Assembly (NCBI GenBank): GCA_963783385.1
Contig: CAWANJ010000006.1
Location: forward strand, 288,001-352,000
Length of the DNA: 64,000 nt
Direction: 5' to 3'
Source of the DNA: an uncultured Gemmatimonadales bacterium
Lineage (GTDB): Bacteria > Gemmatimonadota > Gemmatimonadetes > Palauibacterales > Palauibacteraceae
Notes under the pieces: model-generated
Database searches by the model: none
The model's input: the letters and a program-made list of their open reading frames with translations, nothing else
Told to the model about the DNA's origin: nothing
In this document: in pieces, positions 29,681 to 35,333 of the stretch
Layout of the letters: each line of letters begins with the position of its first letter
Position numbering within the stretch: position 1 is the stretch's first letter
Translations under genes and position numbers: made by a program

Positions 29681-31517
29681 TCAGAAACCCTTCGGCCGCT
29701 CCTCCGCCACGTCGGCGGCCCGCTCCATGGCCAGCCCCACGCGGACGAGGGTGCCCTCGTCGAACAGGCGTCCCACCAGGGTGACCCCGTACGGCACACG
29801 GCGCGGCGGGGAGAAGGTCGGCAGCGGATGGTCCGGGTTCGGCGCCCAGTCGCTCCTCGCCTTCGACACCTCCACGAAGCCGGTACGGAGGGTGAGCGAC
29901 GGGTGGCCCGTGTTGTTGGAGATCACCAGCATCTCGTCGCGCAGCGAGGGCACGAGGAGGAGGTCCACCTCCGACATCAGCCGGTCCATCTCGGCCGCTA
30001 CCTTCCGGCGCAGGCGGTCGGCCTGCACGAAGTCCACCGCGGACAGGAAGCGCGACTGGCGGAACAGGTTGGGCCAGGCGTCGGGCACCTGGGCCCGCAT
30101 GTCATCGACCTTCCCGCTCAGGGTGAGCTCCTCGAACGCCGCCGCGGCCTCGGCGAACAGCATCACGTTGAGCCCGTCGTACGGCCAGTCGGGGATCGAC
30201 ACCTCGGTCGGCACGAGGCCCAGCTTCCCGAGCACCTCGAGCGCCGCCCGGTCGACGTCCGTGGCCGGCGGCTCCTCCATCCAGTCCGGGAAGTAGCCGA
30301 CCTTGAGCCCCTTCACCGGCCCGGACGCGTCGTAGTCGAGGCGGGATGGAACGCTGGCCGGGTCGCCGGCGTCGGGGCCGCCGATGGCGCGCAGGACCAG
30401 CATCGTGTCCTCGACGCCGCGCGCGATCGGGCCGAGCTTGTCGAGGGTCCAGCACAGCGTCATGGCGCCCGTCCGCGGCACCCTCCCGTAGGTGGGGCGC
30501 AGCCCGTCCACGCCGCAGCGCATGCACGGGTCGATGATGCTTCCCTGCGTCTCGCTCCCGATCGCGAACCCGACCAGGCCGGCCGCCGTGGCCGAGCCCG
30601 GGCCGGCGCTGGAGCCGCCGGCGCCCTCCTCGGTCAGCCACGGGTTCATGGTCTGGCCGCCGAACCAGAATGTCGTTGAGGGCCAGCGCCCCCATGCTGA
30701 GCTTGGCCACCAGCACGGCGCCGGCCTCGTTCAGGCGGCTGACGACCGCGGCGTCGGCCTCGGGGACCCGGTCCCGGAAGGGCTCGGCCCCGTAGGTGGT
30801 CGGGATCCCGGCCGTGTCGAGGAGGTCCTTGGCCCCCCACGGGATCCCGTGCAGCGGCCCCCGGTACCGGCCGGCGGCGATCTCCCGGTCGGCCCGCTTC
30901 GCCTGCTCGAGCGCGTGGTCCTCGGTGAGCGTGATCACGCACCGCAGCTTCGGGTCGAAGCGCTTCAGGCGCTCCAGGTAGATGCGCGTGAGCCGCTCGG
31001 AGGTGAGCTTTCGGCCCTCGATCCAGCGGGACAGGCGCCACACCGGCGCGAAGGCGATGTCCTCGTCCTTCCCGGGCAGGGAGCCGGGATCGGCGGAGGC
31101 CCGCACGAAGCGGTCACGGGACGGCCCCACCTTCATGCCGGGCAGCACGGGGTCCCACACCGTGGCCGGGGCCAGCGCCTCCTCGAGCGCGATCTTCCGC
31201 GGACCCGTCCGGCGCTCCATGAGCCCGGCCATGGAGGTGCGCCAGCTGTCGGCCGCCATCTGCCGGTGCGCCCCGGTCATCTCGACCCGCGCCAGTTTCT
31301 CCGCCTCGGCGAAGGTGGCCACGGACACCTCGGGACCGGCGGCCGAGGACGTGTTGAAGGCCGGCGTGGCGCCGGGGGTGGTGTCTCCGGCCGCGCCGGC
31401 AGCGGCCTCGGCGGAATCGGCGGAGCCGGGGGCCCCGGATTTCCCGCCGCGGCAGGCGGCGACGAAGCCGGCGAGGCCGACGGGGGCGCGAATGAGGAAC
31501 TGGCGTCGGGTGTTCAT
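29681..31517 (-). CDS. Tat-exported amidase (amidase-signature family), frameshifted at ~30670
   Basis: TRRQFL Tat motif; GPLHGIPWGAKD, GGSSAG, GSETQGSI split over two frames; removing one T restores DIWFGG. Confidence 0.9.
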
Positions 31518-31552
31518 GGATCGTCCACGCTGGAGAATCGGGTAGCGGAGGC

Positions 31553-31774
31553 CTACTCCGGCCGGGCGTAGGACTCCAGGTAGCCGCATCCGGGACACCG
31601 GTATGTCACGACGGGCAGTCGCTCCAGGTCCCGGGTCTTGACGCCGAACCAGAAGCTCCGCTCCGGTTTGCCGGAGGCCCACTCCTCTCGGCGCACCTGG
31701 CCGTAACCGTAATCCGGCCGGTAGCCGGGGTTCATCTCCTTTCGACAGCGGGGGCACTCGTGGGAGTCGATCAC
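31553..31774 (-). CDS. Small zinc-ribbon protein (DUF6487-like)
   Basis: CPRC...M..G...YRCPGCGYLESYA. Confidence 0.75.
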   Translation of the reverse strand: MIDSHECPRCRKEMNPGYRPDYGYGQVRREEWASGKPERSFWFGVKTRDLERLPVVTYRCPGCGYLESYARPE

Positions 31775-31792
31775 TTGACCCTCTCCTGGTTC

Positions 31793-32371
31793 TCAGGCGC
31801 CTCCTGCCTCGGCGAGCGTAGCGCCCTCCGGGATCTCGTCCGGTGGCAGTCCGGAGGCGGCCTCGAGCCGGCCCGTGAAGTTGAAGAAGGAGGCCAGGGC
31901 CGTGATCTCCCAGATGGCGCTCTCGTCCCAACCTGCGGCTCTCAGCTTGTCAATGTCGGTCTCGTCCACGAAGCTCGGGTTCTCGGTCAGCTTGCTGGCA
32001 TAGGAGAGTAAGGCCCGGGTCATCGGGTCCAGGTCGTACTCGGGCCACGTCGTGGCGAACTCGTGGCTCAGGTGCTCATCGCCCGTGAGGCGGCGGACCG
32101 CCGCCGTATGCAGGCCCAGTCAGGGCGCGCCGCCCACCTTTCCGTTGACCACGGTGGCCAGCATCTCCCGCTGCAGTCGACTGAGCGGCGAGGACTTGCG
32201 CAGGTGCAGGTGGCGGTACAGTGCGCCCGCCGGGCCGGCGACGCCGAGGTCGACGGCGAGGACCTGGAACACGCCGGGGATGACCCCGCCGTACTGGCCG
32301 CGAACCCAGCGGTAGAACAGGGCGCGGAGCCCGGTGGCCCGCTCCGGAGCGACGGTCTTGATGTGCGTCAC
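31793..32371 (-). CDS. AhpD / carboxymuconolactone decarboxylase-like peroxidase; putative selenoprotein (UGA at 32122-32120)
   Basis: ORFs 32120..32371 and 31793..32023 share a frame and are separated only by one TGA. Read-through gives LSRLQREMLATVVNGKVGGAP-U-LGLH...RALLSYASKLTENP...ASFFNFTGR (192 aa). Confidence 0.8.
32081..32115 (-). promoter_or_regulatory. Putative bacterial SECIS element
   Basis: UGA CUGG GCCUG CAUAC GGCGGC GGUCC GCCGCC UCA CGGGC: lower and upper stems, with a GGUC-containing apical loop 20 nt after the UGA. Confidence 0.7.
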
Positions 32372-32501
32372 GCGTTCCTCTCTCGGTGCGTGGGAGGCCG
32401 CGGGCCCGGTGGCCGGCGGCGGGGAAATGTGGGATCGGCGGTTCCGGCCGGCAACGCGCTCCGACCTCGAGGCCGGAGACCACGGGCCGAAGCCCGCGGC
32501 G

Positions 32502-32543
32502 TTGACGCTCGCGCCGGAGCTCGTTATACATAGATGACTATGT
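32502..32543 (+). promoter_or_regulatory. Sigma-70 promoter overlapped by a putative PadR operator
   Basis: TTGACG-17bp-TATACA; perfect inverted repeat ACATAG-ATGA-CTATGT (32528-32543) across the -10/+1 region. Confidence 0.65.
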
Positions 32544-32575
32544 GAAGCTGTCTAGGCATGACCGGAGGGAGGCGC

Positions 32576-32911
32576 ATGACACCCCGCGGCAACAACATCC
32601 TCCAGGGAACCCTGGGTCTCCTGGTGCTGCGCACGCTGGAGGCCCGTGGCCCACTCCACGGCTACGCGATCACCTCGGCCATTCACGGGCTCTCGGACGA
32701 GCTCCTCCGCGTCGAAGAGGGCTCGCTCTACCCGGCGCTCCACCGCATGGAGCAGGAGGGGTGGCTCGAGGCCAAGTGGGGCGTCACCGACAAGAACCGA
32801 CGAGCCCGCTTCTACACCATCACCGCCCCCGGCCGGCGGCGGCTCGCGAGGGAGCGGGAGAGCTGGAACCGGCTGACCGAGGGCGTCCGGCGCGTGCTCC
32901 AGTTCGCCTGA
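32576..32911 (+). CDS. PadR family transcriptional regulator (acidobacterial, ADOP-associated type)
   Basis: ILQGTLGLLVL, HGYAI, VEEGSLYPALHR, W....NRRARFY. Confidence 0.95.
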   Translation: MTPRGNNILQGTLGLLVLRTLEARGPLHGYAITSAIHGLSDELLRVEEGSLYPALHRMEQEGWLEAKWGVTDKNRRARFYTITAPGRRRLARERESWNRLTEGVRRVLQFA

Positions 32912-32963
32912 CGACCCCCCGTCCGACCACGACGCCCGGCGCGGACCGGGCTCCGGAGGACTC

Positions 32964-35333
32964 ATGACGTGGCATCGCCGCTGGCTCAACCTGCTGAGCC
33001 CCGGCCGGGTCTGGCGCGACATTGACCGCGAGATGGCCTTCCACCTCGAGGAGCGGGTCGACGAGCTCGTGGCTTCCGGCATGAGCCCCGAACAGGCGCG
33101 GCGTGAAGCCAGGCGCCGGTTCGGCCGCGTCGAGACGATCCGAGGCCGCATCCGAGACGTGGACGTGGTGGGGTGGCTCGAGTCGCTGCTGTTCGACATC
33201 CGGTATGCGCTCAGGGGACTCCGGGCTCATCGGGGCTTCACGGTGGTCGCGGTGGCGTCGCTGGCGCTCGGCATCGGGGCCAACACGGGCATCTTCAGCC
33301 TCATCGACGCCGTGCTCCTGCGCTCCCTGCCGGTGCGGAACCCCGGGGAGATCGTCCGCCTGTCGATGGGGGACGGAACCACCAACTTCACGAACCCCCT
33401 CTGGGAGCAGATCCGCGACCGACAGCACTTCCTCGCCGGGACGGCCGTCCTCAGCCACGACTTCTGGGAGAGGGAATACGGCGGAGCTGGGGACATCGTC
33501 GGCCGGACGCTCTCGCTGGACGGCCATCCCTTCCAGATCGTCGGAGTGGCGCGCCCGGGGTTCTCCGGCATCGACGTGGCCCGACCGGCCAAGATCTTCG
33601 TCCCGCTTTGCACCGCCGCCATCCTCCGACCCGGCCGCGACGTTCTGGACGCGCGGAGCACGTGGTTCCTGAACGTCTTCGGCCGGCTGCGGCCGGGCGA
33701 GACGCTGGCGCAGGCCCGCGCCGGCCTGGCGACCCTCTCCCGGTCCGCCTTGGAGGCGACGGTGCCCCGGGACTGGAGCCCCGCCGAACAGGAGAACTTC
33801 CGGGAGAGAACGCTCACGGCCGAGTCCGCGAGCAACGGCATGTCCCTCCTGCGGAGCCGGTACGACCACGCCCTCTACGTGCTGCTCCTCGTCGTGGGGG
33901 TGGTGCTTCTGATCGCCTGCGCCAACGTGGCGCAGCTCCTCCTGGCCCGGGCCACCGCGCGCAAGCACGAGGTGGCCGTCCGACTCGCACTCGGCGCCGG
34001 TCGGGCCCGGCTGGCACGGCAGACCCTGGTCGAGAGCCTCCTGGTGGCGCTGGCGGGCGCGGGCCTGGGCCTTCTGTTCGCCCGCTGGTCCAGCCGAGTC
34101 CTGGTCGGATTCCTCGCACGGGGAGGGCACGGGGTCCGCCTCGACCTGTCCCTGGACCCCAGGGTGCTCGGCTTCACGGTCGGCGTCGCCGTGGTGACCG
34201 CTCTCCTGTTCGGACTGGCGCCCGTCGTCCGCTCCAACGAGGTCCGTCCAGCGTCGGCCATGCGGGGAACCGGGCGTGGGGTCGTGGGCGACGCACGTCA
34301 CGGCGCCGTTCGCGGGATCGTCGTCGCGCAGGTCGCTCTGTCCTTCGTGCTGGTGGTGGCCGCCGGACTCCTGGTCGGGAGCTTTCGCCGGCTCGACACC
34401 GAGGACCCCGGCTTCCAGCGCCACGGCGTACTGGTGGTGACCGCTGACTGGTCCAACCTGCAACTGTCCGGCGCCGAGCAGCAGGCCTTTCCGCGCCGTC
34501 TCCTCGATCGGATGCGGAGGCTGCCGGGAGTGGCGGTCGCCGGAGCCGCGGAGTTCACGCCCGTGAGCGGCACCTCCTGGAACGAGGTGGTCTCGGCGGA
34601 CGGCCGCGTGCCCGCATCGCCTCGGGACGCGATCCTATGGTTCAACGGGGTGACGGACGGCTACCTGGGCGCGCTCGACACGCGACTGCTCGCCGGCCGG
34701 GACTTCACGCCGGGAGACGACTCCGCCTCCGGGAGGGTGGTGATCCTGAGCCGAACGGCGGCCCATCGCTACTTCGACGAACCCGCGCCTCTGGGCAAGT
34801 CGATCCGGCTGGTCCGACACGACACTTTGGGTGCCTCGCTCCGGATCGTGGGGATCATGGAGGACGCGAAGTACCGCCGCATGGACGAGGAGATGTTGCC
34901 CACGGCGTACGTCCCGCTCGAACAGACGGGCACGGGGTCGACGATCCGGCTGACGCTCCGAGCGGACGGCCCGACGAAGACCCTCATCCCCGAGGTCACC
35001 GAGTCCATGCGCGCCCTGAACCCCGGCATCGCGCTCGAGTTCACCACGCTCGAGGACCAGGTCGCCGCTTCCCTGGCCAGACCCCACCTCCTGGCCACGC
35101 TGTCGGGCTTCTTCGGCGCGCTGGCGCTCCTCCTCGCCGTGATCGGGCTGTACGGCACGATGTCCTACGCCGTGGCCCGCCGCCGCAACGAGATCGGGGT
35201 CCGAATCGCGCTCGGCGCGACCCGGACCCGCATCCTCCGCATGGTGGCGCGCGGCGACCGTGAACCCGATGGTGGCGCTTCGGGAGGAATAGGCGACCGG
35301 CGGGCCGAAGGAGTGTGTGGATGCATGCCCTGA
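32964..35333 (+). pseudogene. ADOP family (duplicated MacB/FtsX) ABC permease, apparently internally deleted and 3'-truncated
   Basis: EMAFHLEE, LALGIGANTGIF, LLIACANVA, RRNEIGVRIALGA. The usual segment between QIRDRQ and AVLSH is missing (~33438), and the family-like sequence stops after RILRMVAR (~35253). Confidence 0.7.

What the first reader, a model, noticed from the sequence alone, without database searches (positions are those of the whole stretch)
31793..32371. Hidden AhpD/CMD-family selenoprotein: in-frame UGA plus SECIS-like hairpin
Seen: the two small ORFs 32120..32371 and 31793..32023 are one reading frame interrupted by a single TGA (32122-32120). Read through, it gives a complete AhpD-like protein (...QREMLATVVNGKVGGAP-U-LGLH...). 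Immediately 3' of the UGA lies GCCUG-CAUAC-GGCGGC-GGUCC-GCCGCC-UCA-CGGGC, with the apical loop 20 nt from the UGA. Known: AhpD uses E...CxxC-x3-H, and this UGA sits at the second Cys, four residues before the His. The E. coli fdhF SECIS has a GGUC-containing loop at similar spacing. Inference: selenocysteine recoding, which gene callers would miss. The other apparent errors in this window are indels, not substitutions.
Basis: partly seen in the sequence, partly recalled or inferred. Interest (0 to 1): 0.85.

Follow-up and report, generated by a model that had tools for sequence, protein, structure and literature searches.

The report
Cysteine-free AhpD-like selenoprotein gene
The two small reading frames are one gene for an AhpD-like antioxidant-type enzyme whose internal UGA very probably encodes selenocysteine; the family is already known, but this widespread branch lacks the usual partner cysteine and is routinely mis-annotated.

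Summary
On the minus strand, 32371..31793 is one frame with a single internal TGA (32122-32120).

**Evidence for selenocysteine**
- Read through, the protein passes NCBIfam TIGR01926 (97.9 bits, cut-off 81.8) across the TGA.
- TGA sits at this column in 12 of 12 orthologues from related genomes, in 80 of 80 loci fetched from species-representative genomes, and in 62 of 80 metagenome loci. Of the other 18, 15 carry Cys codons and 3 carry TTA.
- A 6-bp stem with an N-G-U-N-C loop follows the UGA at nt 18-34. It is 98.7% paired, shows compensatory changes, and has frozen synonymous sites.
- The 15 Cys-codon homologues form only 1-3 of the 6 stem pairs.
- The genome has tRNA-Sec, selA, selB and selD. 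selD carries its own in-frame TGA.

**Caveats**
- selB is frameshifted in this assembly.
- Incorporation of selenium is not shown.

**Novelty**
AhpD-like selenoproteins are known, with a CxxU motif. This gene belongs to a separate branch with a GxxU motif. The partner Cys is Gly, and the window's protein has no Cys at all, so an external reductant is implied. Interest is moderate.

The parts
31793..32371 (-). Whole coding sequence of the AhpD-like (TIGR01926) selenoprotein: 192 codons plus the TGA stop at 31795-31793, GTG start at 32371-32369.
   Evidence: frame. (TIGR01926 97.9 bits, residues 29-178, spanning the TGA). (single tblastn matches over residues 1-192 in relatives).
32375..32384 (-). 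Purine-rich Shine-Dalgarno-like stretch (GAGAGAGGAA) ending 3 nt before the GTG start.
   Evidence: Read directly. No sigma-70-like promoter or intrinsic terminator was found in 31400-32700.
32120..32122 (-). In-frame UGA, codon 84, read as selenocysteine.
   Evidence: TGA at this column in 28 of 28 loci from relatives, in 80 of 80 genome-contig loci and in 62 of 80 metagenome loci; the remaining 18 are 15 TGC/TGT and 3 TTA. It aligns with the second Cys of the CxxC in PDB 3c1l, 2pfx and 6k40.
32089..32105 (-). Conserved SECIS core. 5' arm 32105-32100 (GGCGGC), loop 32099-32095 (GGUCC; family consensus N-G-U-N-C with G and U invariant), 3' arm 32094-32089 (GCCGCC).
   Evidence: 98.7% of cells paired, and 2 of 6 pairs show G-C to A-U double changes; 60 of 62 TGA loci form 6 of 6 pairs, against 1-3 of 6 in the 15 Cys-codon loci; synonymous third positions inside the stem are frozen (entropy 0, 0.97 and 0.54 bits, against 1.2-2.0 bits at nearly all other degenerate codons scored).
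32081..32115 (-). Present in this window but not conserved.
   Evidence: it folds in the window. (helix 1 has only 52.6% of cells paired).
32165..32167 (-). Glu69 codon, 15 residues before Sec84 (the Glu of the AhpD-type Glu/His relay).
   Evidence: Nearly invariant in the family alignment (E of QREM). It served as an anchor in 136 of 138 distinct sequences.
32108..32110 (-). His88 codon, four residues after Sec84.
   Evidence: Invariant in alignments A1 and A3.
32129..32131 (-). Gly81 codon, at the position of the first (resolving) Cys of the CxxC in the wider family.
   Evidence: aligned with the first Cys of CYYC, CFYC and CVYC in solved structures. (154 loci carry Gly at this position before the TGA).

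Best explanation
Window 32371..31793 (minus strand) is one intact gene for a 192-residue AhpD-like 'peroxidase-related' protein (NCBIfam TIGR01926, CMD superfamily). Its codon 84, UGA, is recoded to selenocysteine. SelB with Sec-tRNA(Sec) is recruited by a short SECIS hairpin that lies inside the coding sequence, 15 nt after the UGA: a 6-bp G+C-rich stem and a 5-nt N-G-U-N-C loop. Sec84 sits where the wider family has the second Cys of the CxxC, which by recall is the nucleophilic one. It keeps the family's Glu (-15) and His (+4). The partner Cys at -3 is Gly, and the window's protein has no cysteine at all.

Inferred mechanism: the selenolate, activated by the His88/Glu69 relay, attacks a peroxide or an oxidised partner. 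Because there is no internal resolving thiol, the resulting selenenic acid or selenenyl-sulfide must be recycled by an external thiol, either a low-molecular-weight thiol or a thioredoxin/glutaredoxin-type protein. That is a glutathione-peroxidase-like or 1-Cys-peroxiredoxin-like cycle on an AhpD scaffold.

Shown here: the frame, family membership, conservation of the UGA, RNA-level selection on the hairpin, and presence of the machinery. Inferred: actual Sec insertion, the substrate and the reductant.
For: Gene and family:
- One frame with a single TGA.
- TIGR01926 at 97.9 bits against a cut-off of 81.8, over residues 29-178.
- A profile of the family hits solved AhpD-like proteins 3c1l (8e-34), 2pfx, 6k40, 2oyo and 2prr, with U84 on the second Cys of the CxxC.

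Codon conservation:
- All 12 related genomes that hold an orthologue (59-93% identity) have one TGA. Of 71 match rows in 61 genomes, 60 have one TGA, 1 has two and 10 have none.
- The TGA is at the same column in 28 of 28 loci that gave a tblastn match, out of 30 fetched.
- 80 of 80 genome-contig loci have TGA. These are the best 80 of 157 relatives found. Their record titles name Gemmatimonadota, Acidobacteriota, Ignavibacteriales, Rubrobacteraceae, Acidimicrobiia, Calditrichaceae, KSB1, Binatia, Myxococcales and others.
- Cys homologues exist at the same column.

SECIS:
- The upper stem is 98.7% paired over 76 distinct sequences, with G-C to A-U double changes at two pairs and 24 G-U wobbles at a third.
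- Natural control: 60 of 62 TGA loci form 6 of 6 pairs and 2 form 5 of 6, whereas the 15 TGC/TGT loci form 1-3 of 6 although they also encode ...RRL.
- Synonymous sites: the Ala codon at +6 is GCG in 124 of 124 sequences, and the Arg codons at +9 and +10 are CGY only. Four other conserved Arg codons in the gene use all four third bases.
- A small apical loop containing G is the stated common feature of bacterial SECIS elements (PMC1088965, passages read).

Machinery:
- tRNA-Sec 76 bits (cut-off 47), anticodon TCA; selA 535 bits; selB.
- selD at 363 bits with an in-frame TGA in G-A-G-U-A-C-K, followed by a hairpin.
- selA was found in 60 of 61 related genomes.

No code change: TGA ends 15 of 27 long frames in the window, and it ends this gene itself.

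No sequencing error: contigs of runs X1 and X8 bridge the codon unchanged.

No internal resolving Cys: Gly at -3 in 154 loci, 101 of which have no Cys at all.
Against: - selB in this assembly is split over two frames by one extra base. If that is real and not an assembly error, this strain could not insert Sec and would make an 83-residue fragment. selB is intact in 4 of 4 relatives checked. The assembly has at least one other single-base indel relative to a same-genus genome.
- The single-sequence fold of the hairpin is no more stable than shuffles (z = 0.21).
- No Rfam family matches the element.
- The Pfam CMD match is below its gathering score (20.1 against 23).
- The covariation rests on few events (4 cells with double changes in the upper stem), and the sequences are related.
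- No RNA, selenium-labelling or peptide evidence exists.
- The catalytic cycle and the peroxidase role are inferred from relatives that have a CxxC, which this protein lacks.
- Three metagenome loci carry TTA (Leu) at the column. Two database proteins show Gly there. So the redox residue is not indispensable in every lineage.
Confidence: 0.9

Rival explanations
1. The gene is intact in the family, but this strain cannot make the selenoprotein. Its selB carries a real +1 frameshift, so UGA84 terminates and only an 83-residue fragment (or nothing useful) is produced.
For: selB matches the model in two frames, model positions 2-218 and 218-575. One extra base sits between the codons for ...T-A-R and V-R-T-L-Q-V-H-G.
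Against: The AhpD-like gene, its SECIS and the Sec-containing selD show no decay. selB is a single open frame in 4 of 4 relatives, two of them in the same genus. The assembly has another single-base insertion that breaks an amidase which is intact in the same-genus relative, which points to assembly indels.
Confidence: 0.05
2. UGA84 is read through by a near-cognate or suppressor tRNA (giving Trp or Cys), or the organism reads TGA as an amino acid, so no selenium is involved.
For: 18 full-length database proteins of this branch carry W at the column. UGA followed by C, as here, is by recall a weak termination context.
Against: TGA is the commonest stop of long frames in the window (15 of 27) and ends this gene. 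None of the 160 loci whose DNA I read at this column has TGG, so the W's are most simply TGA read under another code by gene callers. I could not match any W protein to DNA in hand, so this is inference. The conserved hairpin, absent in the Cys forms, and the complete Sec machinery have no role under plain read-through. Trp at the catalytic Cys position is chemically implausible.
Confidence: 0.03
3. It is a pseudogene or a sequencing or assembly error: a nonsense substitution in an ordinary Cys-type AhpD-like gene, or two truly separate small genes.
For: Gene callers split it. The representative library holds many fragments that end at residue 83 or begin at about 87-92. P0083 is exactly the C-terminal fragment of locus L069.
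Against: TGA at the same column in 80 of 80, 62 of 80 and 28 of 28 loci. Protein conservation continues undiminished across and after the stop. Independent contigs keep TGA. The family model spans the stop.
Confidence: 0.01
4. Sec is inserted, but the enzyme is not a peroxide- or disulfide-handling AhpD analogue. A lone selenol on a CMD fold could carry out other chemistry, for example reductive dehalogenation, as in the CMD-family debrominase Bmp8 and the Sec-dependent deiodinases.
For: The family profile weakly hits the debrominase Bmp8 (6ohj, E = 0.001). The dithiol motif that defines AhpD-type redox cycling is absent. A long branch (1.31, support 100) separates this branch from the CxxC/CxxU forms (FastTree only).
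Against: The closest solved and studied relatives are CxxC peroxidase-related proteins. Loss of DR1765 (6k40) makes D. radiodurans sensitive to H2O2 (PMC8945050, passages read). The Glu/His relay of AhpD is kept. Gene neighbours give no hint of halogen metabolism: histidine kinase, TetR and a TTHB210-like lipoprotein in other loci; PadR, a permease and an amidase here. The parallel between Bmp8 and the deiodinases is recalled, not read here.
Confidence: 0.1

Closest known systems
AhpD-like selenoprotein family (COG2128 / TIGR01926), described from the Sargasso Sea and GOS metagenomes
   Same: Same NCBIfam model (TIGR01926). Sec at the second position of the AhpD redox motif, with a SECIS directly after the UGA. 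The literature lists the family with TIGR01926/COG2128 (PMC1088965, PMC2398784 and PMC13188914, tables and passages read). Related genomes hold true CxxU paralogues (C-[FHR]-Y-U-xxx-H) with their own hairpin.
   Different: All three papers give the motif as CxxU. Here it is G-A-P-U, with no Cys at -3 and none elsewhere in the protein. In a FastTree tree this branch lies across a long branch from the CxxC/CxxU forms. Identity to the CxxU paralogues is only 30-39%.
Solved CxxC 'peroxidase-related' AhpD-like proteins: Mlr4105 (3c1l), 2pfx, 2oyo, 2prr, and D. radiodurans DR1765 (6k40)
   Same: They align over about 165 residues with the family profile (E 8e-34 to 9e-16). The Glu-x14-[C/U]-x3-His register is shared. 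DR1765 is linked to H2O2 tolerance, and both of its CxxC Cys matter for complementation (PMC8945050).
   Different: They are dithiol (CxxC) cysteine proteins with no UGA and no SECIS. The window protein replaces the first Cys by Gly and the second by Sec.
M. tuberculosis AhpD (Glu118 ... Cys130-x-x-Cys133-x3-His137)
   Same: Same spacing of Glu (-15), the nucleophilic position and His (+4). The residue numbers and the role of Cys133 are recalled, not read here. The general role of AhpD as an AhpC reductase fed by lipoamide proteins is in PMC8945050.
   Different: Very distant in sequence; the review gives 12% identity between DR1765 and Mtb AhpD. Mtb AhpD recycles through its own Cys130, which has no counterpart here.
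E. coli fdhF SECIS (the textbook bacterial SECIS)
   Same: A hairpin inside the coding sequence, directly after the UGA. It has a small apical loop with conserved G and U at about the same distance. By recall these are G23/U24 in fdhF. Here they are G25/U26, both invariant in 81 sequences.
   Different: The conserved stem is shorter (6 bp). No conserved bulged U was seen, and the lower helix is not conserved. No Rfam model recognises it.
Selenocysteine glutathione peroxidase and 1-Cys peroxiredoxins (mechanistic analogues only)
   Same: A single redox-active chalcogen residue with no internal resolving Cys, so recycling depends on external thiols (established enzymology, recalled).
   Different: Unrelated fold (thioredoxin fold against the all-alpha AhpD/CMD fold). 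No homology is claimed.

Membership tests
Bacterial selenoprotein gene (UGA-Sec recoding) | In-frame UGA at a conserved column where homologues carry Cys | tested here: met
   TGA in 80 of 80 loci, 28 of 28 and 62 of 80. TGC/TGT at the same column in 15 of 80 loci, and Cys in full-length database homologues.
Bacterial selenoprotein gene (UGA-Sec recoding) | SECIS hairpin directly 3' of the UGA, with a small apical loop containing G | tested here: met
   Stem at nt 18-23 with 29-34, 98.7% paired. Loop N-G-U-N-C with G and U invariant. Absent in the Cys forms. Synonymous sites frozen. The single-sequence energy is not significant, and there is no Rfam match.
Bacterial selenoprotein gene (UGA-Sec recoding) | tRNA-Sec, SelA, SelB and SelD encoded in the genome | tested here: met
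   Caveat: selB has a one-base frameshift in this assembly, and is intact in 4 of 4 relatives.
Bacterial selenoprotein gene (UGA-Sec recoding) | Selenium actually incorporated at the UGA | not testable with these tools
   Needs 75Se labelling or mass spectrometry.
TIGR01926 peroxidase-related enzyme (AhpD/CMD superfamily) | Score above the curated cut-off of the family model | tested here: met
   97.9 bits against 81.8, residues 29-178 of 193.
TIGR01926 peroxidase-related enzyme (AhpD/CMD superfamily) | Pfam CMD domain (PF02627) above its gathering score | tested here: not met
   20.1 bits against 23, residues 60-94 only. The domain model is short and general; the NCBIfam full-length model passes.
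TIGR01926 peroxidase-related enzyme (AhpD/CMD superfamily) | Glu ... [C/U]-x3-His catalytic register | tested here: met
   E69, U84 and H88. H88 is invariant and E69 nearly invariant.
TIGR01926 peroxidase-related enzyme (AhpD/CMD superfamily) | All-alpha AhpD fold | not tested
Only sequence-profile matches to solved AhpD-like chains are available.
AhpD-like selenoprotein as described in the literature (CxxU) | CxxU (or CxxC) redox pair: a Cys three residues before the Sec | tested here: not met
   Gly81 aligns with the first Cys. Gly is at -3 in 154 loci. 43 of 64 wider-family representatives are CxxC. The paralogues in related genomes do meet this feature.
AhpD-like selenoprotein as described in the literature (CxxU) | Thiol-dependent peroxidase or reductase activity | not testable with these tools
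   Needs an enzyme assay.

The most novel reading that the evidence does not exclude
The GxxU branch may be a distinct monoselenol enzyme class on the AhpD scaffold that has not been described as such. It is usually cysteine-free. By record titles it is spread across about ten phyla of soil and sediment bacteria, with one nearly invariant SECIS. Its chemistry cannot be the dithiol cycle of AhpD, so it would run either a GPx-like two-step reduction with an external thiol or non-peroxide chemistry such as dehalogenation. Because gene callers split it, or read the UGA as Trp, it would be largely invisible in current annotation.
Probability: 0.35. Interest if true: 0.55.

Novelty: new variant of a known kind. 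Interest (0 to 1): 0.4.

Why it matters
For annotation: this gene and at least 150 relatives whose DNA I read are one protein, not two fragments. Public sets hold them in three wrong forms: N-terminal pieces ending at residue 83, C-terminal pieces of about 106-108 residues named 'hypothetical protein' or 'peroxidase-related enzyme', and full-length proteins with W at the active site. A simple rule would recover them: TIGR01926 match, then G-A-P-TGA, then the nt 18-34 stem.

For biochemistry: a natural AhpD-fold protein whose only redox-active residue is Sec is a clean system. It could show what selenium buys when the resolving thiol is gone, and which external reductant serves such enzymes in Gemmatimonadota, Acidobacteriota and Rubrobacteraceae.

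It does not change what is known about Sec decoding, and it does not reveal a new selenoprotein family. That keeps the score moderate.

Tried and rejected
- **Rfam scan** of 31700-32500 at E up to 10: only three chance-level hits (sR49, COG3860 RNA, mir-6790) and no SECIS family. I treat this as uninformative, because by my recollection bacterial SECIS elements are poorly covered by Rfam.
- **Single-sequence folding**: the hairpin is predicted, but the energy equals that of shuffles, so folding alone cannot support the claim.
- **Conserved gene neighbourhood as a functional clue.** The window's neighbours recur only in the same-genus genome. They are a 73-aa Zn-ribbon-like ORF, PadR, an ADOP-type permease and an amidase. 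An all-against-all clustering of flanking ORFs in 93 loci was noisy, because high G+C gives antisense ORFs. It yielded only a histidine kinase, a TTHB210-like lipoprotein and a TetR regulator in subsets. No redox partner emerged.
- **Matching the W-containing database proteins to DNA in hand**: none matched at 99% identity or more. So 'W = TGA miscalled' stays an inference.
- **Expression**: no RNA holder listed.
- **Read laying**: in runs X4 and X11 the contigs end at or within about 20 nt of the codon, so they are not counted as bridging it.
- **Careful tree**: the 'quick' IQ-TREE run returned no answer. The tree used is FastTree only, so branch supports are weak evidence, and a few motif labels in it are regex mislabels (for example L033 and L045).
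- **Structure prediction and fold search**: not possible.
- **Papers.** Supplementary tables of the selenoprotein papers and the BSepDB website were not visible. They may already list GxxU members under 'AhpD-like protein'. The statement that a GxxU AhpD-like form is not in print rests only on searches and on the passages read.
Full report
**1. The observation**

Read on the minus strand, the window has a GTG at 32371-32369, preceded by a purine-rich GAGAGAGGAA. A frame runs from there to TGA 31795-31793 with one internal stop, TGA at 32122-32120. The read-through product (P0001, 192 residues) reads ...QREMLATVVNGKVGGAP-U-LGLHTAAVRRLTGDE... Counting from the U of UGA, nt 18-23 pair with nt 29-34 around a GGUCC loop, and an outer GCCUG/CGGGC stem encloses it. 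On this sequence alone the fold is not remarkable. The z-score is 0.21 against dinucleotide shuffles, which is expected in a window of 72% G+C.

**2. What the protein is**

- P0001 passes the curated cut-off of NCBIfam TIGR01926, 'peroxidase-related enzyme' (97.9 bits against 81.8). The match covers residues 29-178, so it spans the UGA.
- Pfam's short CMD model is just under its threshold (20.1 against 23).
- A profile of the family finds solved AhpD-like chains: 3c1l (8e-34), 2pfx, 6k40 (D. radiodurans DR1765), 2oyo and 2prr.
- In those alignments U84 lies on the second Cys of their C-x-x-C, H88 on their His, and Gly81 on their first Cys.
- Glu69 lies 15 residues before U84, the spacing of the Glu in the AhpD relay. 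The M. tuberculosis residue numbers are recalled, not read here.

**3. Is the UGA conserved?**

- *Related genomes.* A six-frame search of 61 related genomes gave 71 matches: 60 with one TGA, 1 with two and 10 with none. The 12 genomes with a close orthologue (59-93% identity) all have one TGA.
- *Same column.* In the 28 of 30 fetched loci that gave a tblastn match, the TGA lies at the same column. They fall into two groups. The window's group has G-A-[PA]-U-L-G-x-H. A paralogous group (30-39% identity) has C-[FHR]-Y-U-x-x-x-H.
- *Species-representative genomes.* A scan found 157 relatives. The best 80 were kept, and 80 of 80 have TGA at the column. Their records are titled Gemmatimonadota (most), Acidobacteriota, Ignavibacteriales, Rubrobacteraceae, Acidimicrobiia, Calditrichaceae, KSB1, Binatia, Myxococcales and others. 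A few titles may reflect mis-binned contigs.
- *Metagenomes.* A scan seeded with Cys-type relatives kept the best 80 of 379 loci. Of these, 62 have TGA, 15 have TGC or TGT and 3 have TTA.
- *Database proteins.* Full-length homologues with Cys at the column exist at 47-57% identity, for example proteins titled Gaiellaceae and Dormibacteraeota, and there is one at 70%.

This is the classical Sec/Cys pair.

**4. Is the hairpin real?**

In an ungapped alignment of 81 sequences (76 distinct), the upper stem is paired in 98.7% of cells. Two pairs show G-C to A-U double changes, a third shows 24 G-U wobbles, and the loop is N-G-U-N-C with G and U invariant. The outer stem is paired in only 52.6% of cells and is not part of the conserved element.

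Because the region also encodes H-T-A-A-V-R-R-L, I looked for RNA-level constraint in two ways.

- *Natural control.* 60 of 62 TGA loci form all six pairs and 2 form five. The 15 Cys-codon loci encode a similar ...E-A-[ML]-R-R-L but form only 1-3 of six, using CGG, CGA and AGG Arg codons freely.
- *Synonymous sites.* I scored 136 distinct, indel-free Sec-type sequences.
  - Third-base entropy at conserved degenerate codons is 1.2-2.0 bits nearly everywhere in the gene. Two conserved Leu codons outside the stem (+1 and +30) lie near 1 bit.
  - At the three third positions inside the stem it drops to 0 (Ala +6, GCG in 124 of 124), 0.97 and 0.54 bits (Arg +9 and +10, CGY only).
  - Four other conserved Arg codons use all four bases.

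A small apical loop containing G directly after the UGA is what the selenoproteome literature gives as the common feature of bacterial SECIS elements (PMC1088965, passages read). No Rfam family matches.

**5. Machinery and code**

The genome (9 contigs, 3.54 Mb, 92% complete) has:

- tRNA-Sec at 76 bits (cut-off 47), with anticodon TCA;
- selA at 535 bits;
- selD at 363 bits, with an in-frame TGA in G-A-G-U-A-C-K followed by its own hairpin;
- selB.

selB is the weak point. The model matches in two frames, and one extra base separates them. selB is a single frame in 4 of 4 relatives checked. The assembly also has a single-base insertion that breaks the neighbouring amidase, which is intact in the same-genus genome. 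I therefore read the selB shift as probably an assembly indel, but I could not check reads there. selA is found in 60 of 61 related genomes. TGA is the commonest stop of long frames in the window (15 of 27) and ends this very gene, so there is no genome-wide reassignment.

**6. Sequencing error?**

Contigs from two other public runs bridge the codon with ample flanks and show no difference at 32120-32122 (X1 and X8). The X8 contig differs at 25 other places, so it is a distinct strain. X1 may be the source sample.

**7. How it probably works**

*Recoding.* SelB with Sec-tRNA binds the nt 18-34 hairpin as the ribosome reaches UGA84. This follows from the established bacterial mechanism and the evidence above. 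Insertion itself is not shown.

*Chemistry.* Sec sits at the family's nucleophilic position with the Glu/His relay intact, but the partner Cys is Gly.
- Of 154 loci with the G-x-x-TGA motif, 101 encode no Cys at all. The window's protein has none.
- The wider family is mostly CxxC (43 of 64 representatives).
- The oxidised selenium therefore cannot be resolved inside the protein. An external thiol must do it, as in Sec glutathione peroxidases or 1-Cys peroxiredoxins. This step is inference.

*Role.* A peroxide-related role is suggested by the nearest studied relative, DR1765. Its loss sensitises D. radiodurans to H2O2, and its CxxC Cys are needed for complementation (PMC8945050, passages read). 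Gene neighbours give no further clue.

**8. Comparison with what is known**

AhpD-like proteins (COG2128, TIGR01926) have been among the abundant known bacterial selenoprotein families since 2005. Every table I read gives their motif as CxxU:
- PMC1088965 and PMC2398784;
- the 2026 review PMC13188914, which lists 'AhpD-like protein, TIGR01926, CxxU'.

The CxxU paralogues in related genomes are that family.

The window's gene passes the same model but belongs to a branch without the first Cys. In a FastTree tree of 117 sequences, 79 rows lacking the first Cys (61 labelled GxxU, 13 with Cys, and a few others) sit across a branch of length 1.31 (support 100) from the 38 rows of the CxxC/CxxU side (24 CxxC, 10 CxxU, 4 others). 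This was the fast method only, and the careful run failed.

I found no mention of a GxxU AhpD-like form. Supplements and the BSepDB site were not visible and may list such members.

Public protein sets hold this branch in three wrong forms:
- fragments ending at residue 83;
- fragments of about 106-108 residues, one named 'hypothetical protein' in an NCBI record;
- full-length proteins with W at the site.

**9. Verdict**

The gene is a genuine selenoprotein gene with about 0.9 confidence. It is of a known family, in a variant branch (monoselenol, Cys-free) that appears to be uncatalogued in the texts I could read and is systematically mis-annotated. Interest is moderate (0.4): useful for annotation and a neat enzymological case, but not a new principle.

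Noticed in passing
Own genome contig 9, about 420,100 (locus L010 near 2159); outside the window: selB matches its model in two frames. One extra base sits between the codons for ...L-L-P-G-G-T-T-A-R and V-R-T-L-Q-V-H-G. selB is intact in 4 of 4 relatives.
   Followed up: partly
window about 30670 (minus-strand amidase-like gene, 29684-31559): A single extra T relative to the same-genus genome (L105) splits a gene with a twin-arginine-type leader into two frames. The 'amidase' label is recalled from the motif and was not tested against Pfam. In L105 the same region is one open frame, 794 codons from stop to stop. There is also a 9-base length difference near the N-terminus.
   Followed up: partly
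L153, L154, L156 (metagenome contigs); protein P0008: Three contigs carry TTA (Leu), one step from TGA, at the Sec column, while keeping all six SECIS stem pairs. This may be a recent loss of the redox residue, or a variant of unknown function. Two database proteins (P0030, P0032) show Gly at the column; their DNA was not seen.
   Followed up: no
L036-L052 (related genomes): Paralogous AhpD-like genes with the classical C-x-x-U motif, each with a hairpin whose loop begins about 17-27 nt after the UGA, built from quite different sequences (CGGAGA.., CGCGGAG.., CGACCUC..). L045 has two in-frame TGAs. The window's own genome has only the GxxU gene (1 match).
   Followed up: partly
Own genome contig 9: 735480-736403 (L018): selD is itself a selenoprotein gene here (G-A-G-U-A-C-K), followed by a hairpin. 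It serves as a positive control for Sec use in this genome.
   Followed up: yes
window 31553-31774 (minus strand): A 73-aa ORF with two C-x-x-C pairs starts 18 nt after the selenoprotein's stop and has its own GGAGAGGG. It matches DUF6487 weakly (20.4 bits, below the cut-off of 24). It is found next to the gene only in the same-genus genome, so it is probably not a dedicated partner.
   Followed up: partly
window 32558-35333 (plus strand): A divergently placed PadR-family regulator (74.6 bits) is followed by a long permease-like ORF. I recall it as the acidobacterial 'ADOP' type; this was not tested.
   Followed up: no
Database proteins P0002-P0014 and others: 18 full-length public proteins of this branch carry W at the Sec column, although none of the 160 loci whose DNA I read at this column has TGG there. 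Probably gene callers switched to a TGA=Trp code on short contigs. P0007 carries Cys and nests inside the Sec branch.
   Followed up: partly
window 32121 (table 8): Contigs of two independent runs (X4, X11) end or begin exactly at 32121, inside the Sec codon. This may reflect strain variation breaking the assembly graph there.
   Followed up: no
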